A DNA stretch of 64,000 bases from Thermoplasmata archaeon (GCA_021828195.1 JAKASQ010000002.1:276245-340244), one strand, 5' to 3'. Counted from the first letter of the stretch, positions 8,429 to 37,130 are shown. Notes: generated by a model from the letters alone, not told the origin. Numbers and translations are program-made.

Positions 8429-8469
8429 TCCGGCGCGGTGTCCTTCCGGGCCGGGAAACCGCGGCCGAG

Positions 8470-16700: not shown

Positions 16701-16906
16701 GTCGACTCGATCGCCGTCCGTTCGGCCTCGCTTGCGAGTTCGCCCGCGTTCGCGCGACGCCGCGCGCGCTCCCGCCGCATCTCGGAGAGGTCCCGGTCGA
16801 GATCTCGCATCTCGCGCGCGTAGCGGCGCAGGCGCACGCGCGAGATCGCCTCGAGCGTGGCGATCTCCCGGTCGAGGGTGTCGTCCGAGGCCCGGTAGCG
16901 GCTCAT
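16694..16906 (-). CDS. Small coiled-coil protein, hypothetical
   Basis: 70-aa charged/coiled-coil ORF between orc1 and the aldehyde dehydrogenase; may be spurious. Confidence 0.25.
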   Translation of the reverse strand: MSRYRASDDTLDREIATLEAISRVRLRRYAREMRDLDRDLSEMRRERARRRANAGELASEAERTAIESTQ

Positions 16907-19811: not shown

Positions 19812-20051
19812 CGGTTCCACCCCGGTGAGCCCCGGAGCGATTAACGGTTGTCGTCGACCCGAGCCCCACGATGCGCTCGCACCGTCCTGGCGCCGATGTC
19901 GATTCTCGGCCGGAGCGAAGGCGCCGGGCGCGAGAGGCACCACCGCTATCTGAATGGGGCCCGTCCCGATCGTTGGGTCCCACGCGTGAGCCGCCAACGA
20001 TCGCTGGAGGAGTTCCGTACCGGGCCGGGGCCGCTCGTCCCTCCGGTGGCG

Positions 20052-21722
20052 ATGCGACGGCCCAAGTACGAGGGGTATCCCGAGATCTGGCCAGTCGAGA
20101 ACGGGAACATCGTCCACCCCTTCGTCCGATCCGGCACCCTTCGCGCGTTGCCCTTCCAGATCGATCTCGCGCGGATCGGACTCGAGGAAGACCTCCTGGT
20201 CGTGCTTCCGACCGGGCTCGGCAAGACCGTGATCGCCGCCTTGATCGCCTCCGAGGTCCTCCGGCGGACGGACGGCAAGGTTCTCTTTCTCGCCCCGACC
20301 CGTCCGCTCGTCCAACAGCACGCGGACTCCTTTGGGCGGTGGCTGGGCGAGACCCGACGCGCCCGATTCACGGGTACGGTCAAGCGTCCGATCCGCGAAG
20401 GCGCGTGGGAGAATAGCGACCTGGTCTTCGCGACACCCGAGATCATCCAGAACGACCTTGCGGCCGGCCGGTACGATCTCTCGGACGTCCAGCTGCTCGT
20501 CTTCGACGAGGCCCACCACGCAGTCGGCAAGTACGTCTACGTCCCGATCGCGGAGCGGTACCGGAAGGAACGCCCGAAGGGAGGCCGCGTCCTCGGTCTG
20601 ACCGCGTCCCCCGGGGGCAAGGACGAGCGGATCGAGGAGGTCGTCGCCGCTCTCGGGGTCGCAAGGATCGAGGCCCGCAGCCGAGAGGACGACGGGGTCC
20701 GCGAGTACGTGCAGGAGATCGACGTCGAGTACCGTTGGGTCGACCTGACACCGGAGGTTCGCGAGATCCGAGATCGCCTCCGGGACGCCTCCCACGAGAC
20801 GGCGCGACGACTGCAACGACTCGGGTACCTTCGCCAGAAGCCGATCCCTTCGTTGACCGTCAAGGATCTGATCGCCCTGCGGGCCGAGATCTTCGCCCGC
20901 CCGGGGCCGATGGTGCGCAAGTTCGGCCCGCTCTATCACCAGCTCATCCTCCTCCACCTCTTTCACGCCGAAGAGCGACTCGAGACCCAGGGCGTGGAAC
21001 CGTTCCTCCAGTACCTCGACCGCCTCGCGGCGAAAGAGAAGCCGAGTCGAGGCGACCGTGCGGTGCTGGCACTCCCCGGCATCGCGGAGGCCCGCCGGCG
21101 GGCCGAGGACTACCTGCGGAGTGGGTGCGAAGCGTCCCACCCCAAGCTCGACGCGCTCGTCGAGCTCGTCCGCGAACAACTGGCTCGTCCTCAGGAGCAT
21201 CGACCCCGCATCCTCATCTTTGCCCAATACCGCGACACGATCCAAGGGGTCCAGTCGATCCTGGAGGCCCAGAGCTGGAAGGTAGGCCGGTTCGTGGGCC
21301 AGGCCACGCGGGACGCGTCGGACCCGGGGATGAACCAGGTCGAGCAGGCCCAGATCCTGGGCGCGTTCCGGGCCGGAGCGTTCCCGATCATGGTCGCCAG
21401 CAGTGTCGCGGAAGAAGGGCTGGACGTCCCCGACGTCGATCTCGTCGTGTTCTTCGAGTCGATCCCGAGCGAGATCCGGGCGATCCAGCGCCGAGGGCGA
21501 ACGGGACGCACTTCGACCGGGCGCGTCGTGGTCCTCCTCACGCGAGACACCCGAGACGTCCGACATCAAGCCGCCGAGGTCCGCCGCGAGCGATCGATGC
21601 GCCGGATCGTCCGCAAGCTTTCCGCTGCCTCAAAGATGCGGGGCGCGGCGGGGTTGGCCGAGCAGGCGCGCACGCGCCGGGCCCCTCGCCGAAAACGGGC
21701 GCGCACGCCGCCCGCCTCTTAA
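20052..21722 (+). CDS. hef: Hef/FANCM-like SF2 helicase (helicase core only)
   Basis: Walker A PTGLGKT, DEAH box (FDEAHHAV), motif VI QRRGRTGR; no ERCC4/XPF nuclease or HhH2 domain at C-terminus; start taken at MRRPKYEGYPEIW. Confidence 0.8.
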   Translation: MRRPKYEGYPEIWPVENGNIVHPFVRSGTLRALPFQIDLARIGLEEDLLVVLPTGLGKTVIAALIASEVLRRTDGKVLFLAPTRPLVQQHADSFGRWLGETRRARFTGTVKRPIREGAWENSDLVFATPEIIQNDLAAGRYDLSDVQLLVFDEAHHAVGKYVYVPIAERYRKERPKGGRVLGLTASPGGKDERIEEVVAALGVARIEARSREDDGVREYVQEIDVEYRWVDLTPEVREIRDRLRDASHETARRLQRLGYLRQKPIPSLTVKDLIALRAEIFARPGPMVRKFGPLYHQLILLHLFHAEERLETQGVEPFLQYLDRLAAKEKPSRGDRAVLALPGIAEARRRAEDYLRSGCEASHPKLDALVELVREQLARPQEHRPRILIFAQYRDTIQGVQSILEAQSWKVGRFVGQATRDASDPGMNQVEQAQILGAFRAGAFPIMVASSVAEEGLDVPDVDLVVFFESIPSEIRAIQRRGRTGRTSTGRVVVLLTRDTRDVRHQAAEVRRERSMRRIVRKLSAASKMRGAAGLAEQARTRRAPRRKRARTPPAS

Positions 21723-23626: not shown

Positions 23627-25780
23627 ATGATCGAGCCCACGATGGAGGAGATCGCAGCGAGCTCCGCCACCGCCGCTGCCCCGGCGGCCCGGAGAGCCCC
23701 CCACACCTCCTGGCGCCGCGTGCTGAGCGACTCGTTCCGCTACTTCGATCCCCGACGCGAGATCCGCCACCCGGTCATGTTCGTCGTCTGGGTGTTCTTC
23801 GTCTTCCTCGCGATCCTCACGGCCTTCCCGCGAGCGTTCCCGGACGTGGCGGCGACCTACAGCGCGGGCTACTACTTCGCTCTGACCGTCATCCTGTTCC
23901 TCACGCTCTGGTTCGGTCACCTCGCCGAAGCGATCGCCGAGGCGCGCGGCCGCGCCCAGGCGGAGAGCCTGCGCCAGATCCGCAGTGGCATGCGCGCGCG
24001 CCAGCTCCTCCCGGACCAAACGACCCGCTGGGTGCCCTCCGACGCGCTCCACATCGGGGACTTGGTCGTCATCGAGGCCTCCGAGGTCGTCCCCCTGGAC
24101 GGTGACGTGGTCCGTGGCGCCGCGCTCATCGACGAATCGATGATGACGGGCGAATCGGCGCCCGCAATCCGAGAGAGCGGAGGCGACCGGACGAGCGTGC
24201 TCGGCGGGACTCGCATCGTTCAGGGCACCGTGACCGTCCGCATCTCGGCCAGCGTCGGGCACTCCTTCCTCGACCGCTTGATCGGGCTGGTCGAGAACGC
24301 CGGGCGCGAACCGACCCCGAACGAGCTCGCGCTCGGCGTCCTTCTCGCCTCGCTCACCGCCGTCCTGCTCGTGGTCATCGTGACATTCGCGGACCTGTCC
24401 GGGCCGTCCGGCGTCGTGACGATCAGCGTCGCGACGATCCTCGCGCTGTTCGTCGCGCTGATGCCCACCACGATCGGAGCGCTCCTGCCGGCCATCGGAA
24501 TCTCGGGGATCAACCGGGTCGCAAAGGCGAACGTGATCGCAAAGTCGGGAACGGCCATCGAGGCCGCCGGCGATCTCGACGTCCTGATCCTGGACAAGAC
24601 CGGGACAGTCACCGTCGGAAACCGACTCGCGGTCCAGTTCATCCCCGCTCCCGGGGTCGACCCGGGCGAACTGGCTTCCGCGGCGCTCCTCTCTTCGAGC
24701 CTCGACGACACCCCGGAGGGTCGCTCGATCGTGCGCCTCGCCGCGCGGCGCGGGGCGACGGCGCCCCGCCTCGAGCCCGGAAGCTACCAGGTATTGGTCT
24801 TCACGGCGGAACGCCGCATGAGCGGGCTCACCCTGAAGGGGGGCCAGGAGATCTTCAAGGGATCGATCGATTCGATGGAGGCCTACGGCGCGGTGATGCC
24901 GCCGGAGCTGCGCGATGCGGCCCGAGAACAGTCGCGCTTGGGAATGACCCCGCTCGTCATCTCGGAGAACCGTCGCCCGCTCGGGATCGTCGCGCTCAAG
25001 GACGTCGTCAAGCCCGGCATCAAGGACCGCATCCACGAGCTGAAGACGATGGGGATCCGCACGATCATGTGCACGGGCGACAACCGGATCACCGCCGCGG
25101 CGATCGCCCGAGAGAGCGGGGTCGATGAGTTCATCGCCGAAGCGAAGCCCGAGACAAAGCTCCAGATCATCGAACGGGAGAAGGCCCAGGGTCGCCTGGT
25201 GGCGATGAGCGGGGACGGCTCGAACGATGCTCCGGCGCTCGCGCGGGCCGACGTGGGCCTCGCGATGAACAGCGGGACGAGCGCGGCGAAGGAGGCCGGC
25301 AACATGGTCGACCTCGACAACGATCCGACGAAGCTCATCGAGATCGTGTCGATCGGCAAGCAGCTCCTGATCACCCGCGGCGCCCTAACGACCTTCACGA
25401 TCACCAACGACGTCGCGAAGTACTTCGCGATCCTGCCCGCGATCTTCGTGACCGCGTCCGGAGCCGCGATCGCCGGGGTGGCGTCGCTCAACGTCCTCGG
25501 CCTCACCAACCCGGGCATCGCCGTGATCGCGACGCTGTTCTTCAACGCGATCGTGATTCCCTTGCTGATCCCGCTCGCGCTGTTCGGCGTGGGGTTCCGG
25601 CCGCGCCCGGCCATCGACCTCCTGCGCCGGAACCTGCTCATCTACGGCCTCGGGGGCCTCGTGAGCGCGTTCGCGGGGATCTGGCTCGTCTACCAGCTCT
25701 TCATCTGGGCCGCCGCCACCCCGCTCGTCGGCGGGATCGGCGCCACGCTCTCCCACATCCTACCGCTCGGAGGTCTGTAG
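23627..25780 (+). CDS. kdpB: Potassium-transporting ATPase subunit B (P-type ATPase)
   Basis: DKTGTVT phosphorylation motif, TGDN, GDGSNDAPAL. Confidence 0.95.
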   Translation: MIEPTMEEIAASSATAAAPAARRAPHTSWRRVLSDSFRYFDPRREIRHPVMFVVWVFFVFLAILTAFPRAFPDVAATYSAGYYFALTVILFLTLWFGHLAEAIAEARGRAQAESLRQIRSGMRARQLLPDQTTRWVPSDALHIGDLVVIEASEVVPLDGDVVRGAALIDESMMTGESAPAIRESGGDRTSVLGGTRIVQGTVTVRISASVGHSFLDRLIGLVENAGREPTPNELALGVLLASLTAVLLVVIVTFADLSGPSGVVTISVATILALFVALMPTTIGALLPAIGISGINRVAKANVIAKSGTAIEAAGDLDVLILDKTGTVTVGNRLAVQFIPAPGVDPGELASAALLSSSLDDTPEGRSIVRLAARRGATAPRLEPGSYQVLVFTAERRMSGLTLKGGQEIFKGSIDSMEAYGAVMPPELRDAAREQSRLGMTPLVISENRRPLGIVALKDVVKPGIKDRIHELKTMGIRTIMCTGDNRITAAAIARESGVDEFIAEAKPETKLQIIEREKAQGRLVAMSGDGSNDAPALARADVGLAMNSGTSAAKEAGNMVDLDNDPTKLIEIVSIGKQLLITRGALTTFTITNDVAKYFAILPAIFVTASGAAIAGVASLNVLGLTNPGIAVIATLFFNAIVIPLLIPLALFGVGFRPRPAIDLLRRNLLIYGLGGLVSAFAGIWLVYQLFIWAAATPLVGGIGATLSHILPLGGL

Positions 25781-25783
25781 ACC

Positions 25784-26458
25784 ATGTCCGGAGCGCTCGG
25801 GCCGCCCGCGCGATCGAGCGAACCCGCCTCCCCGAGCCGCGGGGCGAGCGCGTCCCCGGCCGATGCGCCCCAGCGGATGCGCTCGCACGTTCGAGCGGCG
25901 GTGGTGATCGTCGTCCTCGCCGTCGTGGTCGTGGGGCTCGGCTACCCGGCGCTGTTGACGGGGGTCGCGGACCTCATTTCCCCCGGGACTGCCGGGGGAT
26001 CGCTCTTGCACGCCACGAACGGGACCGTCGTCGGCTCGTCGCTCGTTGGCCAGAACTTCAGCCGTCCGTACCTGTTCTGGGACCGGCCCTCGACAAACGA
26101 TTACAGTACGACCCTGGGGTACGAGACCCCACCCGGGCCGACCGACCCGGCGCTCCGCGCTTTGCTGAACGAAACTATTGCCTACATGAAGCAGTATGGG
26201 AACCTCACCGTGAACGCCTCGATCCCCCTCGTGCTGGTCAGCCCGTCGTACTCGGGCTTCGACCCGTACCTGACCCCCGAGGCGGTCCTGGTCCAGGTCC
26301 CCCGCGTCGCCAACGCGACGGGCGAGTCGATCGCGAGCGTGACCGCGTTCGTCAACTCCTACATCACCCCGCCGCTGTTCGGATTCATCGGACCGGCCTA
26401 TGTCAACGTCGTGAACCTCGACTACGCCCTCGTCGCCTGGACGGGAGTGGGACCCTAG
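25784..26458 (+). CDS. kdpC: Potassium-transporting ATPase subunit C
   Basis: Single N-terminal TM and the KdpC periplasmic domain (SSLVGQNFSRPYLFWDRPS). Confidence 0.9.
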   Translation: MSGALGPPARSSEPASPSRGASASPADAPQRMRSHVRAAVVIVVLAVVVVGLGYPALLTGVADLISPGTAGGSLLHATNGTVVGSSLVGQNFSRPYLFWDRPSTNDYSTTLGYETPPGPTDPALRALLNETIAYMKQYGNLTVNASIPLVLVSPSYSGFDPYLTPEAVLVQVPRVANATGESIASVTAFVNSYITPPLFGFIGPAYVNVVNLDYALVAWTGVGP

Positions 26459-26460
26459 CG

Positions 26461-27264
26461 ATGTACCGGCACATCCTCGTCCCCGTCCGTTCCCCGCCCG
26501 AGGTCGAGCCGATGATCCGCTTCGCGGCCTCGCTGTTGGATGCGGACGGAGAGATTCGCATGCTGCACGTCATCCCGACGACCACGATGCCGCAGGTGAC
26601 CCGGGAGTGGCGAGCCTCGGTCAACCTCGTGATCCCGGCCCACGAGACGGCGGCCTCGCTCGACGTCCGGGTCGAACCCGAGATCCGCGCCAGCGTGGAC
26701 GTACCGGCCGAGATTCTCGAGAGCGCCGAGGCGCACTCCGCCGACGCGATCCTGCTCAGCCTCGGCGGCGACCGGCGCAGCCGCAATCCGTTCGTGGGGC
26801 ACACCGCGAGCGCGATCCTGCACTATGCCTCCGCCGACATCCTCGTGATCAACCGGCTCGCCCTCGCCACGCCCAAGATCCCGAGGATCCTCGTGCCCAC
26901 GCTCGTCGGGCGCACTCCGCCCAAGGCGATGCGCCTCGCCGAGGAGATCTCGATCCACAACGGCGGCGTGCCCATCGTCACGCTCGACATCGGTCCGTCC
27001 TCGCGATCCGACGAGGGCGAAAGTGACCACACCGCCCGAGGGGTCCCGATCCTCCACCGTCATTCCACGGTCAGCGAGGCGCTCCTCGGACGCCGCAAGC
27101 ACACCGCCGAGCTGATCCTCCAGGGCGCCGCACGAGAGCGCTACGGCCTGTTGCTCGTGGGGGAAGATTCCCACAGCGTGAGCCACGCCCCGTTCCTGAC
27201 CCGACCGTTCCTCGAAGAGCTGTTCCGGTCGGCGCCGTGCCCCGTGGTGGCCATCCGCGGCTAG
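26461..27264 (+). CDS. Tandem universal stress protein (UspA-domain x2), KdpQ-like
   Basis: Two Usp-like halves (HILVPV ... ADAILLSLGG; RILVPT ... GLLLVGED); sits directly after kdpC where kdpD/kdpQ is usually found. Confidence 0.7.
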   Translation: MYRHILVPVRSPPEVEPMIRFAASLLDADGEIRMLHVIPTTTMPQVTREWRASVNLVIPAHETAASLDVRVEPEIRASVDVPAEILESAEAHSADAILLSLGGDRRSRNPFVGHTASAILHYASADILVINRLALATPKIPRILVPTLVGRTPPKAMRLAEEISIHNGGVPIVTLDIGPSSRSDEGESDHTARGVPILHRHSTVSEALLGRRKHTAELILQGAARERYGLLLVGEDSHSVSHAPFLTRPFLEELFRSAPCPVVAIRG

Positions 27265-27282
27265 CCTCCTGGGTCCCCGGCG

Positions 27283-28068
27283 ATGGCGGAGCTGTGGTTC
27301 GTCGGCCTCGGCCTCGGGGACGAGCGGGATCTCTCGCGTCGCGGCGCGGAAGCGCTGCGCCGGTGCGAGCGCATCTTCGCGGAGGAGTACACGGCCATCC
27401 TCGAAGCCGGAGCCCTCGATCGCCTCGCGCAGGAGATCGGCCACCGCATCGAGCGCCTCGGGCGGACGGACGTCGAATCCGAGCGCACGATCCTGGACGC
27501 CCTTGCCCGCTCCGAGCGGGTCGGGTTCGTGACGGCCGGCGATCCGTTCGCCGCCACGACGCACGTCGCGCTGCGCCTGGCCGCGGAGCGCGCCGGCCAC
27601 ACCTGGCGATACGTGCCCAACGCCTCCATCTTTACCGCGGCCCCGGGATTCCTCGGCCTGATGGCCTACCGGTTCGGCCGGACGGTCTCCCTGCCGTTCC
27701 CGGCCCCGGGGTTCGCGCCGACCTCGCCGGTGGCCGAGATCGGCAAGAATCGCTCGATCGGCGCGCACACGCTGGTGCTGCTGGATCTGCACCCGTCGGA
27801 GGGACGGTTCCTCGAGGCGGGCGAAGCGATCCGCATTCTCCTCGAGCGCGATCCGGAGCGCGTGGGAATCGCTGCGGACCGGGAGATCGCGGTCGTCGCG
27901 AGGATCGGAAGCGATACGGCCGACGCGTGGGTCGGGCCGGCGCTCGAGTTGGCCGGGACCGAGTTCGGCCCACCGCTGCACGCACTCGTGATCCTGGCGC
28001 CCGAGCTCCACTTCGCCGAGAACGAGGCCCTCGCCCGGTTCCGGCGCTCGGCCGCGGTGAGCTCGTAG
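27283..28068 (+). CDS. dph5: Diphthine synthase
   Basis: Tetrapyrrole-methylase fold with strong similarity to archaeal Dph5 (FVGLGLGDERDLS ... VTAGDPFAATTHVALRLAA ... AHTLVLLD). Confidence 0.85.
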   Translation: MAELWFVGLGLGDERDLSRRGAEALRRCERIFAEEYTAILEAGALDRLAQEIGHRIERLGRTDVESERTILDALARSERVGFVTAGDPFAATTHVALRLAAERAGHTWRYVPNASIFTAAPGFLGLMAYRFGRTVSLPFPAPGFAPTSPVAEIGKNRSIGAHTLVLLDLHPSEGRFLEAGEAIRILLERDPERVGIAADREIAVVARIGSDTADAWVGPALELAGTEFGPPLHALVILAPELHFAENEALARFRRSAAVSS

Positions 28069-28083
28069 GAGCGGCGGGCCCGG

Positions 28084-29631
28084 TCAGGCCGCTTCGCGCT
28101 CGCCCCAGTGGGCGACGCCTGCCGTGGAGAAGAGGTGGTCGAGCGCGGCGTGGTAATCTTCGGGGGAAGCGTGGAGGACGTCGCGCGCTTGGGCTTCGAG
28201 CGAGGCGCCGAACTCCTTCTCGGTGTTCGAGAACTGCCAGGAGTGCGCGGCCGCGCGCCCCAGCGCGAGCAGGATGCCGTAGGCAAGGCCGCGCTCCTTG
28301 CCCTCATGGGGGAGGGACTGGACCGCCGCCCGCTCGGCCGAGGGGATCCCTTGGCTGCGGAAGGCCCTCGCCACCGAGTCGACGTAGGCGGCCTCGCGCG
28401 TGAGGCGCGAATATCGGGGAAGCGCTCCGAGCACCTCCCGCTCCTCCGAGCGGCGCTGGGCCCGCTTCAACAGTTCCGCGATGCGGCCCGGGGCGCGCTG
28501 CCCTTCCTCCAGGTACTTCTGAGCTTCCTTCGGATCGGAGACGATCGAATGGACGATCGTGTCGGCGTGCCCGGCCCACAGGTGCTCGAGGGCTTTGCTC
28601 GCGGTCGCCTCCTCGATCTCGAACAGACCGCTCAACGCCCCGAGCGCCTCTTCGATGGCGCGGCGTTCGATCGGCGTCGCGTGGAGCGCGTTCAGGAACG
28701 CCTCGCGATCCGAGCCGTAGCATACCCCGCCGGCCACGAACGTCGGGGTCCGGGTCGCCTCGATCCGGGGCCGGATCTCGCTGAGATAGGTGGCGATGAG
28801 TTGCGCGTCCGAGAGCCGTCCCGCCTCGTACGCGCGTCGAGCGCCCCGGGAAAGCTCGGGGAGCGCGGCGTGAACGCACGTCTCTCCTCCGTGGCACGTG
28901 ACGTTCAGGGCGGCCTCGACGGGGAACTCTCCCTCCAGATCGGGCGTCACGATCCCCTGCGTGAGGGTCGCGAAGAGTTGCCGCTCGCCCTTCGCGCAGC
29001 GTCGGCACAGACGGAAGGTGGCGCGCGCCCCCGGCCATCCGACCTCCAGGTACGGGCGGGGCTCGCCGGAGCTGAGATGGACGCAGTCGTACCGGCCGCT
29101 CGGCACGTCGGCGATGAACCGGTACGGAAGCGCCGCGAGCTTCGCGGTCCGGAAGTCACCCGGGGGCTCGGGCGACCGGCCCGTGCACCACAGTCGGGTG
29201 GGTCCGGCGAAGAAGTGGAATCCCTTTCGGGCCCAGTCCTGGTACGCGAGGAGGAGCCGCTCGGGGTCCTCGAAGTGCTGGATGGCCACCTCGGCCTCCC
29301 GGGTCGCCCGGCTCAGCGGGGCGAAGGAGACCTGCTCGCCCCCCGGGACCGGGAACGCCACGACCGCCGGCATCTGGGGATCGTGGGAGAACTTCAGAAG
29401 CCCGGCATAGGCGCGGGGCAGCGGATCGCCCCAGTGGGACATCCGCTCGAGGCGGGACTCCTCGTCCCGGGCCTCGCGCACCTTCTCGAGGTCCTCCCGC
29501 ATCCGGTCGAAGCGATCGGTCGGGCACTCCGGGCCGAGCCGAGGGAGGAGCGGATCGACCGACTCCCGCAGCTTGCGCGCTCGCTCGAGCAGATCGTCCT
29601 TGCGCACCCCCGAGCCGTAACGCATCCGCAC
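28084..29631 (-). CDS. Hypothetical protein, 515 aa, several Cys pairs (CRRCAKGE, CHGGETCVH)
   Basis: Long ORF with no recognisable family; last gene of the overlapping ubiX-guaAA operon; codon usage consistent with neighbours. Confidence 0.5.
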   Translation of the reverse strand: MRMRYGSGVRKDDLLERARKLRESVDPLLPRLGPECPTDRFDRMREDLEKVREARDEESRLERMSHWGDPLPRAYAGLLKFSHDPQMPAVVAFPVPGGEQVSFAPLSRATREAEVAIQHFEDPERLLLAYQDWARKGFHFFAGPTRLWCTGRSPEPPGDFRTAKLAALPYRFIADVPSGRYDCVHLSSGEPRPYLEVGWPGARATFRLCRRCAKGERQLFATLTQGIVTPDLEGEFPVEAALNVTCHGGETCVHAALPELSRGARRAYEAGRLSDAQLIATYLSEIRPRIEATRTPTFVAGGVCYGSDREAFLNALHATPIERRAIEEALGALSGLFEIEEATASKALEHLWAGHADTIVHSIVSDPKEAQKYLEEGQRAPGRIAELLKRAQRRSEEREVLGALPRYSRLTREAAYVDSVARAFRSQGIPSAERAAVQSLPHEGKERGLAYGILLALGRAAAHSWQFSNTEKEFGASLEAQARDVLHASPEDYHAALDHLFSTAGVAHWGEREAA

Positions 29632-29664
29632 CGGAACACCGCCCTACGGAGCGAGGCCGGTTAC

Positions 29665-30246
29665 TTATCCCCGGCTCCTAACTTGCCGTCGGCACGCATC
29701 CAGGAAGTGGCGGAAGATCTCCCGGCCACCCTCGGTGTGCTCGACCTCGGGGTGGAACTGTACGCCCCAGATCGCCCGGCTCGGGTGGGCCATCGCCTGG
29801 ATGGGGCAGCTCGAGGAGTGGGCGATCGCGATCCATCCCGGTGGGGCCTCCACCACGTGGTCGTTGTGGCTCGACCAAGCCTGGAACTTCGGAGGCAGGC
29901 CGGCGAGGAGCGGGTGATCCGGTCGGTCGATCTCGATCTCCACCCGTCCGAACTCCGGAGCGCCGCGCACGACGCGCCCTCCGAAGTGACGGCCGAGGAA
30001 CTGATGGCCGACGCAGATCCCGAGGATCGGCACGTTCGCCCCGTCGATCCACTCGGCGACCTTCCCGAGCGGCGTGTCCGTTCCTTCCAGGCTCAACGCG
30101 CCGCCCGAGAGCACGATCCCATCTGCGCGCAACGCGTCCCACGACGTTGTGTTCGAGACGATCTCGCTCTCCGCCCCGAGCTCGCGCAGCACCCGCCACT
30201 CCCGGTGGGTCCACTGGCCCCCGTTGTCGATGACCGGGATCCTCAC
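29665..30246 (-). CDS. guaAA: GMP synthase, glutamine amidotransferase subunit (class I GATase)
   Basis: VIDNGGQWTHRE, ILGICVGHQFL (catalytic Cys), HPEVEH triad; GTG start overlapping upstream stop (GTGA). Confidence 0.85.
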   Translation of the reverse strand: MRIPVIDNGGQWTHREWRVLRELGAESEIVSNTTSWDALRADGIVLSGGALSLEGTDTPLGKVAEWIDGANVPILGICVGHQFLGRHFGGRVVRGAPEFGRVEIEIDRPDHPLLAGLPPKFQAWSSHNDHVVEAPPGWIAIAHSSSCPIQAMAHPSRAIWGVQFHPEVEHTEGGREIFRHFLDACRRQVRSRG

Positions 30247-30599
30247 GGCCGATCCTCCGGATCCCCGGGGGGTGGGGGAGGCGGTCGAAGTTGCTCGTGG
30301 AGCCTTTCCACCGACACCTTGAGGTCGCGCACGTCCCCCCGCATCTGGAGCATCTCCTCCTCGAACGAGGAGAACTGCCCGGTGCCGAGCCAACGTTCCG
30401 AGATATACAGGCCGATGAAGATCGCCCCGACGAGCGCGAGGATCGTCGTGAAGACGAGCGCGGAGATGAGGGAGATCGGGTTCGCGATGATCGACTGGAT
30501 CGGCAGCGTGAACAGTTGGGTGATCTCCGCGAGCTCGACGCCGAGCAGGACCGCGACCACGCCGACCCAGAAGATGAGCACCCAGCGCGACGCCTTCAT
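30243..30599 (-). CDS. Small membrane protein (2 TM) with C-terminal coiled coil and poly-Pro tail
   Basis: MKASRWVLIFWVGVVAVLLGV ... second TM ... EEEMLQMRGDVRDLKVSVERL...PPPPPPG; ATGA overlap with upstream gene and GTGA overlap with guaAA. Confidence 0.45.
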   Translation of the reverse strand: MKASRWVLIFWVGVVAVLLGVELAEITQLFTLPIQSIIANPISLISALVFTTILALVGAIFIGLYISERWLGTGQFSSFEEEMLQMRGDVRDLKVSVERLHEQLRPPPPPPGDPEDRP

Positions 30600-31147
30600 C
30601 GCGTGGCTCCGACGTCCGAGAGGAGGATGGCGACGGGTTGTTGGGAACCGGTGAGCTGGATGGAACGGGGAACGTCCACGCCGGTCGTGTAGGAGCGGAA
30701 GAACAAGGTGTTGCCGGAGACCTCGAACGCGATGATCGCCACGTACCACGCGCTCCCCACCTTCGCGGTCGTGTAGTACGCGGAAACGTTGATCGCGACC
30801 GGATTGCCGGCGTACGAGGTGCCGATCGCGACGAGGTTCGTCCCATTCGTCCAGTTCCCCCAGCGGAGCGATCCGACCGACGGTGGAGCGCTCCAGTTGT
30901 AGTTCTCGGCGATGCCGATGCTCAGGCTCGCGTAGCGGATGTTGCCGATCGCGTGGAGGTAGAGGTACGAGGTCATGTTCACCCCCGGGTAGTCGACGAT
31001 GATCTCCGCCTGAGTAAAGATCGTCCCCGCCGCCGGCACCCCCGAACCGATGAGGACCGGAGTGAGCACGATCAGTACGAGCAGGATCGCCGCGACCCCG
31101 ACGAGCGGGATGGGGAAGTAGCGTCGGGCGCCCCGCGCGGCCGTCAC
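30596..31147 (-). CDS. Signal-anchored extracytoplasmic protein, sequon-rich, hypothetical
   Basis: N-terminal TM (PIPLVGVAAILLVLIVLTPVLIG) followed by a beta-rich domain with many N-x-S/T sites; 4-nt overlaps on both sides. Confidence 0.45.
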   Translation of the reverse strand: MTAARGARRYFPIPLVGVAAILLVLIVLTPVLIGSGVPAAGTIFTQAEIIVDYPGVNMTSYLYLHAIGNIRYASLSIGIAENYNWSAPPSVGSLRWGNWTNGTNLVAIGTSYAGNPVAINVSAYYTTAKVGSAWYVAIIAFEVSGNTLFFRSYTTGVDVPRSIQLTGSQQPVAILLSDVGATR

Positions 31148-31716
31148 GTGCCTTCCTTCCAGCCGCGATACAAATGATGGGGCACGCCGAACTGATCGAG
31201 CAGCTTTCCCGCGAGATACTCGGCCGCCTCGCTGAGCCGCTCGATGCCGAGGTAGTAGGGGGGCGCAGCGTCCAGGACGACCACCCCGAGCTCGCTCAGG
31301 GTGGTCAGGTGGCGCAGATCGAGCGTGGACAGCGGGGTCTCCCGCGGAACGATGACGAGCGCACGCCGCTCCTTCAGGTGAACGTGCGCCGCGCGGGTCA
31401 GGAGATTGTCGCCGAGGCCGAGGGCGATGTGGGCCACGGTGTTCGACGAGCAGGGGACGATTGCCATCCCGCGCGTGGGTCGTGAGCCGCTCGCGATCGG
31501 AGCGGCGATGTCCGACTCGTCGTACGTGGCGGTCACGTACGGGGCGAGATCGGAGACGCGGAGCCCGGCTTCCTCCTTCAGGACCGCCTCCCCTCCCCGA
31601 GAGACGACCAGGAGGACCGAGACCTTCGCGGCATGCAGCGCCTGGAGCGCGGCCACGGCGATCGGTGCGCCGCTCGATCCAGAGATGCCGATGACCAGGG
31701 GCGCGTCTGAGTTCAC
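31144..31716 (-). CDS. ubiX: UbiX/PAD1-type flavin prenyltransferase (prenylated-FMN synthase)
   Basis: LVIGISGSSGAPIAV and the flavoprotein fold of UbiX; GTG start at 31716 chosen because the next ATG (31794) lies inside the divergent thiolase gene. Confidence 0.8.
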   Translation of the reverse strand: MNSDAPLVIGISGSSGAPIAVAALQALHAAKVSVLLVVSRGGEAVLKEEAGLRVSDLAPYVTATYDESDIAAPIASGSRPTRGMAIVPCSSNTVAHIALGLGDNLLTRAAHVHLKERRALVIVPRETPLSTLDLRHLTTLSELGVVVLDAAPPYYLGIERLSEAAEYLAGKLLDQFGVPHHLYRGWKEGT

Positions 31717-31782
31717 GTGGGTGGTCCTCCCTATGGGGCTAGCTTCTTGAACGATTCGGGCGATAAGACGATTCGGAGGCGG

Positions 31783-32949
31783 ATGGGCATGCATCGGGCG
31801 GCGATCATCGGGGCGGGACACACCCGCTTCGGCGTCCTCGAGGCCGGTCCGCGCGCGCTCCTCGGGACCGCCGTCGCCGAGTCCTTCGCTTCGGTCGACC
31901 GGAATCTCGAGCGGAACCAGGTCGCGGAGGCGTACCTCGCGACCCTCGGGTTCGGCGGATGGCAGATCGGGAACGCCTCTACGGTCCTCGCGGAAGAGGC
32001 GGGCCTCATCGGGATCCCCGTGACCCGGATCGAGAACGCATGCGCCTCGGGCGGGTTCGCCATCCGCGCCGCGGTCCGAGCGGTGGAGCGAGGAGACCGC
32101 GACGTGGTCCTGGTCGCGGGTCTCGAGAAGATGACGGACGTGCCGAACGCTCGCCGTCGATACTGGCTCGGCGTCTCGGGGGACACGGAGTGGGAGCGAC
32201 TCGCGGGGCTCACCTTCGCCGGCGTCTACGGGTTGCTCGCGTCGCGTTACCTCGCGGATCACCGCCTCGGACCCGAGGCCCTCGCGGAGGTGGCGGTCAA
32301 GAACCACGAGAACGGGCGACTCAATCCCAATGCTCAGTTCCGCAAGGCGCTCCACCGCGACGACGTACTGGGCGCCCCCCGCGTCGCGGATCCGCTCGGG
32401 CTCTACGATTGCTGCCCCGTTTCGGACGGCGCCGCGGCCCTGTTGATCGCACGGGGCGACATCGCCTCTCGGTTCACGGACACGCCGGTCTATGTTGACG
32501 GGACCGGCGCCGGATCCGACTATCTGGCCGTCCAGGAGCGCGAACGATTCACCCGTCTCGACGCGACCCGTCGGGCGGCCGAAGAGGCGTTCCGTGAGGC
32601 TCGGGCCGAACGGAAAGGGATCTCGCTGCTCGAGGTCCACGATTGCTTCACGATCGCCGAGCTCCTCGCCCTTGAAGACCTGGGCTTTGCCGGAAACGGT
32701 GAGGCCGCGGCGCTGACCCTATCGGGAGAGACCCGCCGGACCGGTCGACTTCCCGTGAATCCGGACGGAGGCTTGAAGGCCAAGGGCCACCCGATCGGTG
32801 CCACCGGAGTGAGCCAGGCCTACGAGGCGTTCGTCCAGCTTCGCCGCCAGGCCGGCGCGCGCCAGGTGCCCGGGGCCGAGCGCGCCCTGACGCACAACGT
32901 GGGGGGCTCCGGAGCGAGCGCCACCGTCACGTTGTTCTCGGTGGGGTGA
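31783..32949 (+). CDS. Thiolase-domain protein (archaeal acetoacetyl-CoA thiolase type)
   Basis: MGMHRAAIIGAGHTRFG N-terminus with GGAGG RBS; catalytic Cys in ENACASG; HDCF and NVGGSG C-terminal motifs. Confidence 0.85.
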   Translation: MGMHRAAIIGAGHTRFGVLEAGPRALLGTAVAESFASVDRNLERNQVAEAYLATLGFGGWQIGNASTVLAEEAGLIGIPVTRIENACASGGFAIRAAVRAVERGDRDVVLVAGLEKMTDVPNARRRYWLGVSGDTEWERLAGLTFAGVYGLLASRYLADHRLGPEALAEVAVKNHENGRLNPNAQFRKALHRDDVLGAPRVADPLGLYDCCPVSDGAAALLIARGDIASRFTDTPVYVDGTGAGSDYLAVQERERFTRLDATRRAAEEAFREARAERKGISLLEVHDCFTIAELLALEDLGFAGNGEAAALTLSGETRRTGRLPVNPDGGLKAKGHPIGATGVSQAYEAFVQLRRQAGARQVPGAERALTHNVGGSGASATVTLFSVG

Positions 32950-33136
32950 GACCATCCCGGCGATCCTGCGCGCATCGTGCGTCATCCCTCATTCCGAGTC
33001 GGGGGGGCTCCGCGGGTTTGCTCCCGATGAGGACGAGTTCACCATCGGCGTCGCCGCGCTCGAACGGCTCCTCGAGCGATCCGATCCTGCCCATGCGGTC
33101 GAGACCGCTCACCTCGTCGGCCAGTTCCCGGCTTCG

Positions 33137-34081
33137 GTGGATCGGTGGATCCCGGAGCTCCTGGGCCACCCGGTGACGATCGTCCGGCACGACGACCCGC
33201 CCGAAGGGCTCGTCGTGGCCGTACGGGCGGCCCTGAGCGAGCACCTCGGGGTCCACGCGATTCTCGCGGTCGATACACCGGCGAGCGGACCCGGGGCTCC
33301 CTCCGGTGCGGTCGCCGTTGGGCTACTGATCGGGAGCGGAACCGGGATCGAGATCGCGGGGTCACCGGGGTCCTCCTCCATGGCGCCGGAGATCCCTTCG
33401 GTGCGAGGTGTTGGCGTCCCCCGACGGACCGGACCGGCCTTTGCGCTTCACTCCCGGTTCGCAGGCGCCCGGGCCCCGGAAGCCCACCCGGGCGCCGCGG
33501 AGGCCGTCCGCTTCGACGGCATCGAGTTTCGAGCAACCGGGCCGATCAAGTGGGTGGGTGACTGGGCGGGCGGACCGGAACCCTCCTTCCCGTACGACGC
33601 CATACGACGCGCGGCCACCGGGAGGGATCGCCTGTTCGCGGTGTCCGAAGGCGCCTACGTTCCACGGCCGCGATACGTGGAGAACCTGCCCAGCCGGTGG
33701 CGTTTCGTCGCCGAGCGATGCGGTCACTGCCAGCGCATCACCTTCCCGGTCCGGGGGAGCTGCCGGGCCTGCCATCGAGCGGACCGGCTCGAACGGATCG
33801 CGCTCCCACTCCGCGGAGGAACGGTGCTCGCCAGCACGGTCGTGGCCCGAGGGGGACAGCCGACCGAGTTCGACCACCAGGTCGACGAAAGTGGCCCGTA
33901 CGGGGTCGTGCTCGTGGAGCTCGCCCCGATGGTCCGGGTGACGCTCCAGGTCGCCGATGCGCTCCCGGGTACCGTGCACATCGGCGATCGGGTGGAGACC
34001 CGGCTCCGGCGCCTCTACCCCATGGAGGGCGAGTGGCGCTATGGCCGAAAGGCGGTGCCCATGGCCCCCACGGGGCGTTAG
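33137..34081 (+). CDS. DUF35 (OB-fold + rubredoxin-like zinc ribbon) protein with ~190-aa N-terminal extension
   Basis: C-terminal CGHCQRITFPVRGSCRACH zinc ribbon followed by the OB-fold typical of the DUF35 partner of archaeal thiolase/HMGCS; GTG start; reading frame stays open upstream to 32891. Confidence 0.6.
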   Translation: MDRWIPELLGHPVTIVRHDDPPEGLVVAVRAALSEHLGVHAILAVDTPASGPGAPSGAVAVGLLIGSGTGIEIAGSPGSSSMAPEIPSVRGVGVPRRTGPAFALHSRFAGARAPEAHPGAAEAVRFDGIEFRATGPIKWVGDWAGGPEPSFPYDAIRRAATGRDRLFAVSEGAYVPRPRYVENLPSRWRFVAERCGHCQRITFPVRGSCRACHRADRLERIALPLRGGTVLASTVVARGGQPTEFDHQVDESGPYGVVLVELAPMVRVTLQVADALPGTVHIGDRVETRLRRLYPMEGEWRYGRKAVPMAPTGR

Positions 34082-34307
34082 CGCTTCCTCGTCTCCGGGG
34101 CCGGCGCGGCGGCTTCCCAGGGGACTCCGACCCAGGCGAGGTAGAATCCGGGGACTCAAGAGGGAAAGACGAGGTCGACGAGGGGCGCCGCTACGTCGCT
34201 CAGCTCGAGGGTGAACTTCCCCCGGTGCTCGCCCGAAGGGTCGGGTCCGACGCTATAGTGGATCTGCATGCTCTCTCCCTCAGGGTACCGGCCACGGGGG
34301 GCGGAGG

Positions 34308-34532
34308 TCAGCCGAACCCGGGAAGGTCACGGTCGCGCTCGGTCGTGGCGGTCCGTTTGGCGTACGGTTCCGACGCGATCCCGAGGTGGGTCGCTAGCTG
34401 TTTGAACGTCTGCGCGAGCTGCGCCACGGACCGCGCCATCGCGCGCTGCTCCGTCCGCAGATCGTTAAGCTCCTGTCGGAGGGCGTGAAGTTCGGTCTCC
34501 CAGCGCGTCGGGTCGGAAGCGGGGCTTGTCAT
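34308..34532 (-). CDS. Small coiled-coil protein, hypothetical
   Basis: 74-aa ORF with heptad-like pattern (LHALRQELNDLRTEQRAMARSVAQLAQTFKQL). Confidence 0.3.
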   Translation of the reverse strand: MTSPASDPTRWETELHALRQELNDLRTEQRAMARSVAQLAQTFKQLATHLGIASEPYAKRTATTERDRDLPGFG

Positions 34533-35417: not shown

Positions 35418-37130
35418 ATGCCCGCACGTGTGATGAAGGAGTTCCAGGCGCCCCGAGGTCTGCCCCGGAAGACGGCGTCGGTCTGCCCGGAGTGTATCAA
35501 GGTTATTCCGGCGGTCGTCCGTGAGAAGGATGGCCGCGTGATCATGGAGAAGACGTGCCGCTCGCACGGGTACTTCTGGGACATCATCTCCAACGACGTC
35601 GACTTCTACCTGCGCATGGAAGTCTATGCGCACGACGGGGTCGGCTACGAGAACCCCTACTACGACAAGTTCCGGGGCTGCCCCACCACCTGCGGCATGT
35701 GCAGCCACCACAAGTCCCACACCGGTCTCGCCTTGATGGACCTGACCAACCGCTGCAATCTGAAATGCCCGGTCTGTTTCGCGAACGCGAACGCCGCGGG
35801 GTACGTCTACGAACCGACCCGCGAGCAGATCCACTTCATGCTGAAGACGCTCCGGGAGCAGAAGCCCGTGGGAGCAGTCGCCGTGCAGTTCAGCGGTGGA
35901 GAGCCGACGCTCAGCCCGCTGTTCCTGGATGCCGTTTCCATGGCGCGGGATGCCGGGTTCAAGCAGATCCAAGTCGCCACGAACGGGATCCGTTACGCGA
36001 ACGAACCCGGGTTCGCCCAGGCGTCGCGCGACGCGGGACTCCACACCCTGTACCTCCAGTTCGATGGCCTGGACGACGAGATCTACCGGAAGGTGCGTGG
36101 CGTTCCGCTGCTTAAGGTCAAGCAGAAGGTCATCCAGGCGGCGCGCGAGACGCACACCTCCCCCGCGGAGCTGGCCCAGGGCAAGCCGGACAAGCCCATC
36201 TCGGTCGTGCTCGTCCCGACGCTGGTCGGCGGGTTTAACGAGAAGGAGATCTGGCCGACCGTCAAGTTCGCGATCGACAACCTGGATGTCGTCCGGGGAG
36301 TCAACTTCCAGCCGGTGGCCCTCACCGCGCGGATTCCCGACAAGGACCGCTTCCAGATGCGGTTCACCCAGTCGGACCTGGTGCGGATCCTGTGCACGGA
36401 CGGGCCGTTCGAGAAGTCGGATTTCTTCCCCGTCCCGTCGGTCGCCCCGATCTCGGAGCTGGTCTCGATCATCCACGGAGAGGAAAAGATGACGCTGACC
36501 ACGCACCCCGGATGCGGGTGCGCGACGTTCGCGTTCATCTCGCAGGACGGTCAGAAGATCACACCGCTCCCGCGCTTCATGGATGTCGACGGCTTCTTCG
36601 AGAGCGTCGAGGGTATGATCGACAAGTACCGGGACGCCCGCTTCTCGCGGGTGCGCACGGCCGTCGCCGGCGCTCGCCTGCTCCACGATGTCGCGAAGTT
36701 CTTCGACTTCTCGCGGGCCCCGGAGGGCCTCAGCGAAAAGAACTGCGTGAAGGTCATCGCCTCGATCTTCACCGAGGGGAACAAGGAGGCCGTCGCAAAG
36801 TTCACCTGGCGGACCCTCTACATCGGGAACATGCACTTCCAGGACGCCTACGACTACGATATCCAGCGTCTGATGCGCTGCGACATCCACTACTCGGTCC
36901 CCGACGGGCGGATCATTCCGTTCTGCTCGTACAATTCCGGTCCGATCTACCGGACGGAGGTCGAGAAGAAGTTCTCGATCCCCATCCCGGACTGGCAGCG
37001 CGCGAAGACCCAGTCGGGTGCCACGCTGAAGACCATCGAGACGATGGGAGTCAACGGCGAGGTCATCGTCGACCCCGAGTACTACAAGATCCGGGCACTG
37101 AAGAGCGCCCCGGGGATGTCGTCGACGTAG
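35418..37130 (+). CDS. Radical SAM protein with N-terminal zinc ribbon and extra C-terminal Cys motifs (candidate tetraether-lipid-synthase-like enzyme)
   Basis: CNLKCPVCF (CxxxCxxC) radical-SAM motif; N-terminal CPECIKV...CRSHG ribbon; additional HPGCGCATF and CDIHY...FCSYN clusters; 570 aa; strong GGAGG RBS. Confidence 0.75.
   Translation: MPARVMKEFQAPRGLPRKTASVCPECIKVIPAVVREKDGRVIMEKTCRSHGYFWDIISNDVDFYLRMEVYAHDGVGYENPYYDKFRGCPTTCGMCSHHKSHTGLALMDLTNRCNLKCPVCFANANAAGYVYEPTREQIHFMLKTLREQKPVGAVAVQFSGGEPTLSPLFLDAVSMARDAGFKQIQVATNGIRYANEPGFAQASRDAGLHTLYLQFDGLDDEIYRKVRGVPLLKVKQKVIQAARETHTSPAELAQGKPDKPISVVLVPTLVGGFNEKEIWPTVKFAIDNLDVVRGVNFQPVALTARIPDKDRFQMRFTQSDLVRILCTDGPFEKSDFFPVPSVAPISELVSIIHGEEKMTLTTHPGCGCATFAFISQDGQKITPLPRFMDVDGFFESVEGMIDKYRDARFSRVRTAVAGARLLHDVAKFFDFSRAPEGLSEKNCVKVIASIFTEGNKEAVAKFTWRTLYIGNMHFQDAYDYDIQRLMRCDIHYSVPDGRIIPFCSYNSGPIYRTEVEKKFSIPIPDWQRAKTQSGATLKTIETMGVNGEVIVDPEYYKIRALKSAPGMSST

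What the first reader, a model, noticed from the sequence alone, without database searches (positions are those of the whole stretch)
28084..31716. Overlapping five-gene operon: ubiX - signal-anchored sequon-rich protein - 2-TM coiled-coil protein - guaAA - 515-aa unknown
Five minus-strand genes are packed with 4-nt overlaps (ATGA, ATGA, GTGA) and a single 33-nt gap, which argues for co-translation. The mix is odd: a prenylated-FMN synthase, two small membrane/extracytoplasmic proteins with no recognised family, the glutaminase subunit of GMP synthase, and a large Cys-containing protein (CRRCAKGE, CHGGETCVH) with no recognisable domains. The UbiX partner (UbiD-type decarboxylase) is absent from the operon. 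The 515-aa protein and the two membrane proteins are candidates for an undescribed function attached to prFMN or purine metabolism.
Basis: partly seen in the sequence, partly recalled or inferred. Interest (0 to 1): 0.65.

Follow-up and report, generated by a model that had tools for sequence, protein, structure and literature searches.

The report
Mixed housekeeping operon with unknown proteins
Five tightly packed genes in a soil Thermoplasmata archaeon form a real, clade-conserved operon, but they look like unrelated housekeeping genes travelling together; the large unknown protein belongs to an undescribed, cysteine-rich family found only in Thermoplasmatota.

Summary
Five minus-strand genes lie at 28084-31716: ubiX, a 183-aa signal-anchored protein, a 118-aa two-TM protein, guaAA and a 515-aa protein ("X515"). 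The junctions are GTGA, ATGA and GTGA overlaps and a 33-nt gap.

The gene order recurs in about 70 species-level Thermoplasmata genomes. The NTGA overlaps of the first four genes are kept in 58/68, 59/69 and 69/71 loci.

The proposed functional link is not supported.
- X515 has no Pfam, NCBIfam or PDB match. Its AlphaFold2 model is confident (pLDDT 90) but has no significant Foldseek match.
- X515 belongs to a family of about 270 clusters, named only from Thermoplasmatota, including Methanomassiliicoccus luminyensis.
- Outside the window's clade, none of the fetched loci that I tested by tblastn or read as called genes has ubiX or guaAA near it, and in the wider set it is usually a separate transcription unit. 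Six genomes of the same clade have also moved it away.
- UbiX is explained by the archaeal mevalonate pathway. Its decarboxylase (AMPD) needs prFMN, and ubiX sits head-to-head with acetoacetyl-CoA thiolase.
- guaAA is the ordinary glutaminase subunit of the two-subunit GMP synthase.
- The two membrane proteins were found only in this clade.

Verdict: a real but ordinary mixed operon. X515 is a new, uncharacterised, probably metal-binding family. Interest is moderate to low.

The parts
31144..31716 (-). ubiX: UbiX-family flavin prenyltransferase (prFMN synthase), 190 aa, GTG start preceded by GGGAGG
   Evidence: Pfam PF02441 2.7e-33. TIGR00421 165.7 bits against cut-off 108.9; NF004685 185.8 against 188. 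Sequence read.
30596..31147 (-). p183: N-terminal membrane anchor plus an extracytoplasmic beta-sandwich domain with 5 N-glycosylation sequons. Homologues found only in this clade. GTGA overlap with the ubiX stop codon.
   Evidence: No Pfam or NCBIfam hit. Only 15 close homologues in the word-index search. Orthologues at 30-48% identity in most same-clade loci outside the window's nearest relatives. AF2 pLDDT 76.6, one helix followed by 11 strands. Best Foldseek PDB E-value 0.02. Sequon enrichment P = 0.011.
30243..30599 (-). p118: small membrane protein with two hydrophobic helices, a charged helical C-terminal part and a Pro-rich tail. ATGA overlap with the p183 stop codon.
   Evidence: No Pfam or NCBIfam hit. 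Hydropathy. Orthologues at 41-65% identity in most same-clade loci.
29665..30246 (-). guaAA: glutamine amidotransferase subunit of the two-subunit GMP synthase, 193 aa. GTGA overlap with the p118 stop codon.
   Evidence: PF00117 2.5e-37. NF001975 209.7 against 198; TIGR00888 173.3 against 172.15. The catalytic Cys (GICVGHQ) and His-x-Glu (FHPEVE) are visible in the translation.
29632..29664 (-). 33-nt spacer between guaAA and X515, with a GGCGGTG (partial Shine-Dalgarno-like) element 5 nt before the GTG start
   Evidence: Sequence. In 77 orthologous loci this junction is always a gap of 1-67 nt and never an overlap.
28084..29631 (-). X515: 515-aa soluble, Cys-rich protein of an undescribed family seen only in Thermoplasmatota. 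Conserved residues are C149, C183-x-H185, C209-xx-C212, C246, C252 and C304.
   Evidence: No Pfam, NCBIfam or PDB sequence hit for the single sequence or the profile. 347 close homologues and 272 cluster representatives at 50% identity. AF2 pLDDT 90.2. No Foldseek hit in PDB or BFVD. Cys conservation.
27283..28068 (+). Context: diphthine synthase-like (dph5) gene, convergent with X515, 15-nt gap between the stop codons
   Evidence: PF00590 1.8e-24. Syntenic in the clade. The name dph5 is my reading of the family and the N-terminal motif; it was not tested further.
31717..34081 (+). Context: acetoacetyl-CoA thiolase (true start probably near 31780) and a DUF35/ChsH2-type OB-fold protein, divergent from ubiX. 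This is the first step of the mevalonate pathway.
   Evidence: Thiolase_C_1 1.6e-43 and Thiolase_N 2.1e-22; OB_ChsH2_C and zf-ChsH2. The L001 orthologue is 390 aa.

Best explanation
This is a real, clade-conserved polycistronic unit, but it is a mosaic of unrelated housekeeping genes and not a pathway.

(1) UbiX makes prenylated FMN for the UbiD-family anhydromevalonate-phosphate decarboxylase of the archaeal mevalonate pathway. That enzyme would be encoded elsewhere in the genome. This explains why ubiX sits head-to-head with acetoacetyl-CoA thiolase/DUF35.

(2) GuaAA is the glutaminase subunit of the two-subunit archaeal GMP synthase.

(3) p183 and p118 are fast-evolving membrane or surface proteins found only in this clade. 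They are carried between the two enzymes and are translationally coupled to them through NTGA overlaps.

(4) X515 is a soluble protein with two or three predicted Cys/His metal sites (Zn or Fe-S). It belongs to a family seen only in Thermoplasmatota, and its role does not depend on the other four genes. It was appended downstream of guaAA only in this clade.

Shown: gene identities, overlaps, synteny, the family's distribution, and the absence of any known family or fold match.

Inferred: co-transcription, metal binding, and the mevalonate role of UbiX.

The biochemical function of X515 is not established. My best guess is a metal-stabilised binding or scaffold protein in RNA or translation-related housekeeping. 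It has few invariant polar residues, a conserved basic N-terminus, and a recurrent tail-to-tail Trm5/TYW2 neighbour.
For: Gene identities.

Overlaps and spacer. They are conserved in 58/68, 59/69 and 69/71 species loci, while guaAA|X515 is always a gap.

The order thiolase / ubiX-p183-p118-guaAA-X515 / dph5 / usp is kept in about 70 of 80 species loci.

X515 moved away from the cluster in six genomes of the same clade.

Neighbours of X515 in nine distant contexts are all different: DUF835/Trm5, UbiA, a 236-aa unknown, DMRL synthase, PS decarboxylase plus CDP-alcohol transferase, NAD kinase, and TrmB/TmcA. None is ubiX or guaAA.

In 67 further loci with enough flank, 42 have only a divergent ORF upstream and 5 have a same-strand ORF.

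Every X515 relative that carries an organism name is from Thermoplasmata, Methanomassiliicoccales or Thermoplasmatota, except one labelled Candidatus Altiarchaeales and two labelled only Euryarchaeota.

Other isoprenoid genes lie in the window: IPK, IDI2, a Tes-like radical SAM enzyme and a cis-prenyltransferase.

AMPD requires prFMN made by a UbiX-type synthase (PMC12547664). The archaeal MVA pathway is described as probably conserved in most archaea, with the Thermoplasma-type variant used by Thermoplasmatales (PMC9385802). GMP synthase is split into two separately encoded subunits in many archaea (PMC10526850).

Compact packing of unrelated genes is usual in this window, for example 16694-16906 / 16903-18399, and 1-3 nt gaps between kdpA, kdpB, kdpC and usp.
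Against: - NTGA coupling of ubiX-p183-p118-guaAA persists even where p183 has drifted to 30-40% identity. That could reflect selection for stoichiometric co-expression, as expected for a complex.
A wider ubiX/p118/p183/guaAA association is therefore not excluded.
- No UbiD/AMPD, phosphomevalonate dehydratase or guaAB gene was seen in the 64-kb window, so the assigned roles of UbiX and GuaAA rest on family membership only.
- GuaAA passes its NCBIfam cut-offs only narrowly.
- The function of X515 is unknown, so independence from the other genes is argued only from gene context.
Confidence: 0.6

Rival explanations
1. ubiX-p183-p118-guaAA is a functional module. The two membrane proteins would tether or regulate UbiX and/or the glutaminase at the membrane, for example by delivering prFMN or ammonia to a membrane-associated isoprenoid-lipid step. 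The conserved translational coupling would then set subunit stoichiometry.
For: NTGA overlaps at all three junctions are kept in 85-97% of about 70 species loci, although p183 has diverged to 30-48% identity. ubiX lies next to mevalonate-pathway genes, and several lipid genes are in the window.
Against: The whole 7-kb region is syntenic in the clade, so the overlaps may simply be inherited. 4-nt overlaps and 1-3 nt gaps between unrelated genes are common in this compact high-GC genome. p183 and p118 were found only in this clade and evolve fast, which is unlike subunits of a core enzyme. In ten loci the ubiX|p183 junction is not an NTGA overlap, and in three of them it has opened to 63-97 nt. 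GuaAA scores as an orthodox GMP synthase subunit A.
Confidence: 0.15
2. X515 is a new synthase or acceptor subunit that uses ammonia from the upstream class-I glutaminase. The 'guaAA' would then be a glutaminase recruited by X515, perhaps for amidation of a translation factor or tRNA, given the convergent dph5.
For: guaAA directly precedes X515 with a gap of 1-67 nt in all 77 clade loci that hold both genes. GuaAA passes its equivalog cut-offs only narrowly. dph5 is the convergent neighbour.
Against: X515 has no PP-loop or other nucleotide-binding signature, and few invariant polar residues across the family. None of the eight distant loci whose called genes were read has a GATase near X515, and no neighbour cluster annotated in the 88 distant loci is one. 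Six genomes of the same clade separate the two genes. The junction is never translationally coupled.
Confidence: 0.05
3. X515 is a tRNA or translation-apparatus modification or maturation factor, for example an accessory protein of the wyosine/m1G37 pathway. Its place in this operon would be incidental.
For: The only neighbour that recurs across deep X515 lineages is a tail-to-tail Trm5/TYW2 methyltransferase. It appears in 15 loci, in 3 of 11 lineages at 45% identity, with a median distance of 9 nt and overlapping stop regions in L004 and L091. Other convergent neighbours are TmcA and dph5. The family has a conserved basic N-terminus. About two thirds of family representatives carry an N-terminal Cx3-4Cx2C motif.
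Against: Convergent neighbours are not co-transcribed. The theme was chosen after the fact among many neighbours, and lipid genes recur about as often (UbiA, PS synthase, GGR). No Trm5/TYW2 gene is in the window or in the clade loci. There is no RNA-binding or Radical_SAM domain hit. The Cx3Cx2C motif is lost in the window clade.
Confidence: 0.12

Closest known systems
prFMN synthase (UbiX/PFS) serving anhydromevalonate-phosphate decarboxylase in the archaeal mevalonate pathway
   Same: The ubiX product passes the UbiX-family model. It lies head-to-head with the thiolase/DUF35 genes of the upper mevalonate pathway and shares the window with IPK and IDI2. AMPD needs prFMN (PMC12547664).
   Different: No AMPD/UbiD or phosphomevalonate dehydratase gene is in the window. 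ubiX is translationally coupled to two membrane-protein genes and guaAA, not to pathway genes.
Two-subunit archaeal GMP synthase (GATase subunit GuaAA plus ATP-pyrophosphatase subunit GuaAB, as in M. jannaschii and P. horikoshii)
   Same: The 193-aa class-I GATase has a Cys-His-Glu triad and scores above the NF001975 and TIGR00888 cut-offs. The subunits are separately encoded in many archaea (PMC10526850).
   Different: guaAB is not adjacent and not in the window. The scores are only just above the cut-offs.
Compact mixed-function archaeal operons with NTGA start/stop overlaps (my background knowledge, not a curated family)
   Same: Co-directional genes of unrelated function, 4-nt overlaps, internal Shine-Dalgarno-like elements, and conservation within a lineage only.
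   Different: Three of the five products have no family assignment at all.
Radical SAM enzymes (CxxxCxxC), considered for X515 because many relatives carry that motif
   Same: About two thirds of distant X515 representatives have an N-terminal Cx3-4Cx2C motif plus further conserved Cys.
   Different: The window protein keeps only one of the three Cys (C36). No Radical_SAM Pfam hit in any of 66 members. The predicted fold has no significant Foldseek match in PDB of any kind.

Membership tests
UbiX family flavin prenyltransferase | Scores above the curated cut-off of the family model, with the flavoprotein (PF02441) fold | tested here: met
   TIGR00421 165.7 bits against 108.9; PF02441 2.7e-33, covering residues 7-173. 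NF004685 is 185.8 against 188, just under its cut-off.
UbiX family flavin prenyltransferase | Makes prFMN for a UbiD-family partner encoded in the same genome | not testable with these tools
   No UbiD-type ORF among the window ORFs scanned. The rest of the genome is not available.
GMP synthase subunit A (class-I glutamine amidotransferase) | Scores above the equivalog cut-off | tested here: met
   NF001975 209.7 against 198; TIGR00888 173.3 against 172.15; PF00117 2.5e-37. The margins are narrow.
GMP synthase subunit A (class-I glutamine amidotransferase) | Catalytic Cys-His-Glu triad | tested here: met
   GICVGHQ and FHPEVE are present in the translation. This was read by eye against the known motif positions, not by structural superposition.
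GMP synthase subunit A (class-I glutamine amidotransferase) | An ATP-pyrophosphatase partner (GuaAB) is present | not testable with these tools
   Not found in the window. The genome is not available.
Any curated protein family or solved structure (for X515) | Significant sequence-profile or fold match | tested here: not met
Radical SAM superfamily (for X515) | CxxxCxxC cluster motif and a Radical_SAM domain | tested here: not met
   The window protein has only C36 at that site. The whole clade lacks the triad. No PF04055 hit.
Functionally linked gene cluster (X515 with ubiX/guaAA) | The adjacency persists across distantly related lineages, beyond general synteny | tested here: not met
   Kept only within one clade, where the flanks are syntenic too. 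Lost in six genomes of that clade. Absent in the distant loci tested by tblastn or read as called genes, and no ubiX or guaAA among the neighbour clusters annotated in the wider set.
Operon (single transcription unit) | Co-directional genes with overlapping or very short junctions | tested here: met
   GTGA/ATGA/GTGA overlaps and a 33-nt spacer, conserved across species. No Rfam element in the region.
Operon (single transcription unit) | One transcript spans all five genes | not testable with these tools
   Needs RNA-seq or RT-PCR. An internal promoter for X515 inside the 3' end of guaAA cannot be excluded.

The most novel reading that the evidence does not exclude
X515 founds a metalloprotein family, seen only in Thermoplasmatota, with a fold not yet represented in the PDB. 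It would carry out a lineage-specific housekeeping step, for example in tRNA G37/wyosine modification or in membrane-lipid synthesis. Alternatively, or in addition, p183 and p118 physically couple UbiX and the glutaminase to the membrane in this soil clade.
Probability: 0.2. Interest if true: 0.6.

Novelty: new member of a known kind. Interest (0 to 1): 0.3.

Why it matters
The operon itself is ordinary. It shows again that tight packing and translational coupling in compact archaeal genomes do not imply a shared function.

The useful by-product is a clearly delimited, phylum-restricted protein family. It has about 270 clusters at 50% identity, a uniform length of about 500-530 aa, conserved Cys/His sites and a confident predicted structure, and it has no Pfam entry or structural neighbour. 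One member is in a cultured organism, Methanomassiliicoccus luminyensis, so it can be studied experimentally.

If X515 proves to be an enzyme or an essential factor, it would fill a lineage-specific gap in Thermoplasmatota biology. If not, it is one more domain of unknown function.

Tried and rejected
- A genome scan with the broad alignment A2 failed because no stretch was conserved enough. I used the close alignment A1 instead and a Methanomassiliicoccales-type alignment A4 on metagenomes.
- Radical-SAM idea for X515: rejected. The motif is lost in the window clade, and there is no domain or fold match.
- PP-loop/ATP-grasp-type synthase partnering GuaAA: rejected. There is no such motif and no recurrent GATase neighbour.
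- Nucleic-acid binding inferred from charge: inconclusive. The family pI ranges from 4.6 to 9.8, and only the N-terminal 35 residues are consistently basic.
- Lipid-related theme in X515 neighbourhoods (UbiA, PS synthase/decarboxylase, GGR, and the mevalonate genes here): noted, but not distinguishable from post-hoc coincidence.
- The nitroreductase neighbour (41 loci) is confined to one lineage.
- The p183 fold is a generic beta-sandwich. The best hits (LPMO/CBP21, reeler domain) have E 0.02-0.05 and TM about 0.3, which is not informative.
- Rfam scan of 26000-34500: nothing.
- A literature search for a description of the X515 family found nothing relevant.


Full report
**1. What is in the sequence**

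The window is 68% G+C. On the minus strand between 28084 and 31716 there are five ORFs:

| Gene | Coordinates | Length |
|---|---|---|
| ubiX | 31144-31716 | 190 aa; GTG start with GGGAGG 8 nt upstream |
| p183 | 30596-31147 | 183 aa |
| p118 | 30243-30599 | 118 aa |
| guaAA | 29665-30246 | 193 aa |
| X515 | 28084-29631 | 515 aa |

The junctions are GTGA, ATGA and GTGA overlaps, then a 33-nt spacer.

- UbiX passes TIGR00421 (165.7 bits against 108.9).
- GuaAA passes NF001975 'GMP synthase subunit A' (209.7 against 198) and shows the Cys/His/Glu motifs.
- p183, p118 and X515 have no Pfam or NCBIfam hit.
- p183 has one N-terminal anchor and five sequons, enriched over shuffles (P = 0.011). p118 has two hydrophobic helices, a charged helical tail and a Pro-rich end.
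- No Rfam family lies in the region.

**2. Surroundings**

- On one side X515 is convergent with a diphthine-synthase-like gene (27283-28068). Beyond it lie usp and kdpABC.
- On the other side ubiX is divergent from acetoacetyl-CoA thiolase and a DUF35/ChsH2-type protein. A radical SAM gene with an HMPTM-type zinc ribbon follows.
- Elsewhere the window carries isopentenyl-phosphate kinase, an FMN-dependent IDI2-type gene and a cis-prenyltransferase.
- No UbiD-type gene was found in the ORFs scanned.

**3. Is the cluster conserved?**

A scan of one genome per GTDB species returned 80 loci, nearly all labelled Thermoplasmata archaeon MAGs, many of them soil or peat isolates by their names. X515 identity in these loci is 49-95%.

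tblastn with the window's proteins shows the order thiolase / ubiX-p183-p118-guaAA-X515 / dph5 / usp in about 70 of them. NTGA start/stop overlaps are possible at:
- ubiX|p183 in 58 of 68 loci;
- p183|p118 in 59 of 69;
- p118|guaAA in 69 of 71.

The guaAA|X515 junction is always a gap of 1-67 nt, in 77 loci. So the first four genes are a conserved translationally coupled block, and X515 follows it.

The flanks are equally syntenic, so this conservation is largely shared ancestry.

Six genomes of the same clade (L066, L067, L068, L072, L078, L084; X515 55-58% identical) have X515 with none of these neighbours within 8 kb. In the three of them that I annotated (L066, L072, L078) it sits beside a divergent membrane protein of about 1018 aa.

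**4. What is X515?**

- It has 347 close homologues, all annotated 'hypothetical'.
- A profile search of 1.84 billion cluster representatives finds 272 members. The full-length members are mostly about 480-560 aa; some representatives are fragments.
- Apart from one protein labelled Candidatus Altiarchaeales and two labelled only Euryarchaeota, every member that carries an organism name is from Thermoplasmata, Methanomassiliicoccales (including cultured Methanomassiliicoccus luminyensis) or Thermoplasmatota.
- None of 66 diverse members has a consistent Pfam hit.
- Sequence and profile searches of PDB are negative.
- The AlphaFold2 model is confident (pLDDT 90.2, pTM 0.69). It has an N-terminal helical part, a central alpha/beta region that carries the Cys residues, and a C-terminal helical region of about 170 residues.

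Conserved residues across the family are C149, C183-x-H185, C209-xx-C212, C246, C252 and C304. About two thirds of distant members also have an N-terminal Cx3-4Cx2C motif, which in the window's clade has decayed to the single C36.

Few polar residues are invariant (Q118, Y268, E322, E471, Y493). The N-terminal 35 residues are consistently basic.

I infer a soluble protein with two or three structural or redox metal sites. It is not a radical SAM enzyme.

**5. Gene context of X515 elsewhere**

Nine separately fetched distant contexts all differ:
- DUF835 and Trm5/TYW2 in Methanomassiliicoccaceae;
- a divergent UbiA;
- a 236-aa unknown;
- DMRL synthase upstream with convergent Trm5/TYW2;
- PS decarboxylase plus a CDP-alcohol phosphatidyltransferase upstream;
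- NAD kinase;
- TrmB, with TmcA nearby.

A metagenome scan added 80 loci. Unbiased clustering of flanking ORFs gave these results:
- In 42 of 67 loci with enough flank, the only ORF within 200 nt upstream is on the opposite strand. Five have a same-strand ORF.
- The commonest neighbour, a nitroreductase in 41 loci, belongs to a single lineage.
- The only neighbour that recurs in several deep lineages is a tail-to-tail Trm5/TYW2 gene (15 loci, 3 of 11 lineages).

No ubiX or guaAA lies near X515 in the three distant loci tested by tblastn (L004-L006) or in the called genes of the eight loci read. The 80 metagenome loci were not tested with the window's proteins; none of the neighbour clusters I annotated there is ubiX or guaAA. 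There is also no Trm5/TYW2 gene in the window.

X515 therefore behaves as an independent, usually monocistronic housekeeping gene. It became attached downstream of guaAA only in this clade.

**6. The two small proteins**

- p183 has detectable homologues only in the clade and evolves fast (30-48% identity in most loci outside the window's nearest relatives).
- Its model is a TM helix plus a beta-sandwich with no informative PDB neighbour.
- p118 is better conserved (41-65% in most loci) but has no recognisable features.
- Their function is unknown. The sequon-rich ectodomain of p183 suggests a glycosylated surface protein.

**7. Explanation**

The simplest reading is a mosaic operon.
- UbiX supplies prFMN to the UbiD-family anhydromevalonate-phosphate decarboxylase of the archaeal mevalonate pathway (PMC12547664; PMC9385802). 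This fits its head-to-head position with the thiolase.
- GuaAA is the glutaminase of the two-subunit GMP synthase, whose subunits are separately encoded in many archaea (PMC10526850).
- p183 and p118 were found only in this clade and look like lineage-specific passengers.
- X515 is unrelated to the other four genes.

I give this reading 0.6. The rivals are:
- a genuine UbiX/p183/p118/GuaAA membrane module (0.15), which is the one thing the persistent overlaps could be pointing to;
- X515 as an acceptor subunit for the glutaminase (0.05);
- X515 as a tRNA or translation-related factor (0.12), which is compatible with the mosaic-operon reading.

**8. Novelty and score**

The operon is an ordinary example of compact archaeal gene packing.

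What remains is an undescribed protein family, seen only in Thermoplasmatota, with a confident model and no known fold neighbour in the searches I could run. That is worth a domain-of-unknown-function entry and a follow-up in M. luminyensis, but it is not surprising in itself. Interest 0.3.

Noticed in passing
window 35418-37130 (+): A 570-aa radical SAM protein with an N-terminal HMPTM-type zinc ribbon (PF23545 + PF04055). From memory, this architecture matches the tetraether lipid synthase (Tes/GDGT-MAS) group. It is syntenic in L001 and L003.
   Followed up: no
window 12858-14760 (-): Isopentenyl-phosphate-kinase-like gene (AA_kinase, 13933-14760) directly upstream of an FMN_dh/IDI2-type gene. 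The listed ORF 12858-14441 is over-extended; the domain covers residues 363-513. Together with the thiolase/DUF35 pair, ubiX and a cis-prenyltransferase (42322-43125), the window is rich in isoprenoid genes.
   Followed up: partly
A2 alignment; X515 residues 32-39 (window about 29515-29538): About two thirds of distant X515 relatives carry an N-terminal Cx3-4Cx2C motif. The window's whole clade keeps only one Cys (C36). A metal site seems to have been lost in this lineage.
   Followed up: partly
L004 8527-9549, L091 6515-7534, L087 7731-8840, L131 7509-8804: A Trm5/TYW2 methyltransferase lies tail-to-tail with the X515 homologue, and the stop regions overlap by 4 nt in L004 and L091. This occurs in 3 of 11 deep X515 lineages and is the only recurrent cross-lineage neighbour.
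   Followed up: partly
L066, L067, L068, L072, L078, L084 (X515 at about 8001-9545): A sub-group of the same Thermoplasmata clade has X515 relocated away from ubiX/guaAA/dph5. In the three loci annotated (L066, L072, L078) it lies next to a divergent membrane protein of about 1018 aa.
   Followed up: partly
L003 9762-10127 and most clade loci: Most relatives have an extra gene of about 120 aa, without a Pfam hit, between X515 and dph5. The window and its closest relatives lack it (15-nt gap).
   Followed up: no
window 59016-60503 (+): A DDE transposase (IS240-type domain with a SWIM zinc finger) lies in the lower-GC stretch at 58-62 kb (GC 0.61-0.62 against about 0.68 elsewhere). This is probably an insertion sequence.
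   Followed up: no
window 11311-12873 (-), 8692-10014 (+), 15258-16700 (+): An ELP3-like radical SAM/GNAT gene, an archaeal Nre gene and an Orc1/Cdc6 gene lie upstream in the window. The Orc1/Cdc6 gene may mark a replication origin nearby.
   Followed up: no
L003 11748-14558: KdpB and KdpC are fused into one 936-aa product in this relative. They are separate genes in the window (23627-25780 and 25784-26458).
   Followed up: no
window 18465-21569 (-): The listed 1034-aa ORF carries seryl-tRNA synthetase domains only in residues 591-984. The long N-terminal extension is probably an artefact of taking the longest ORF in a high-GC genome.
   Followed up: no
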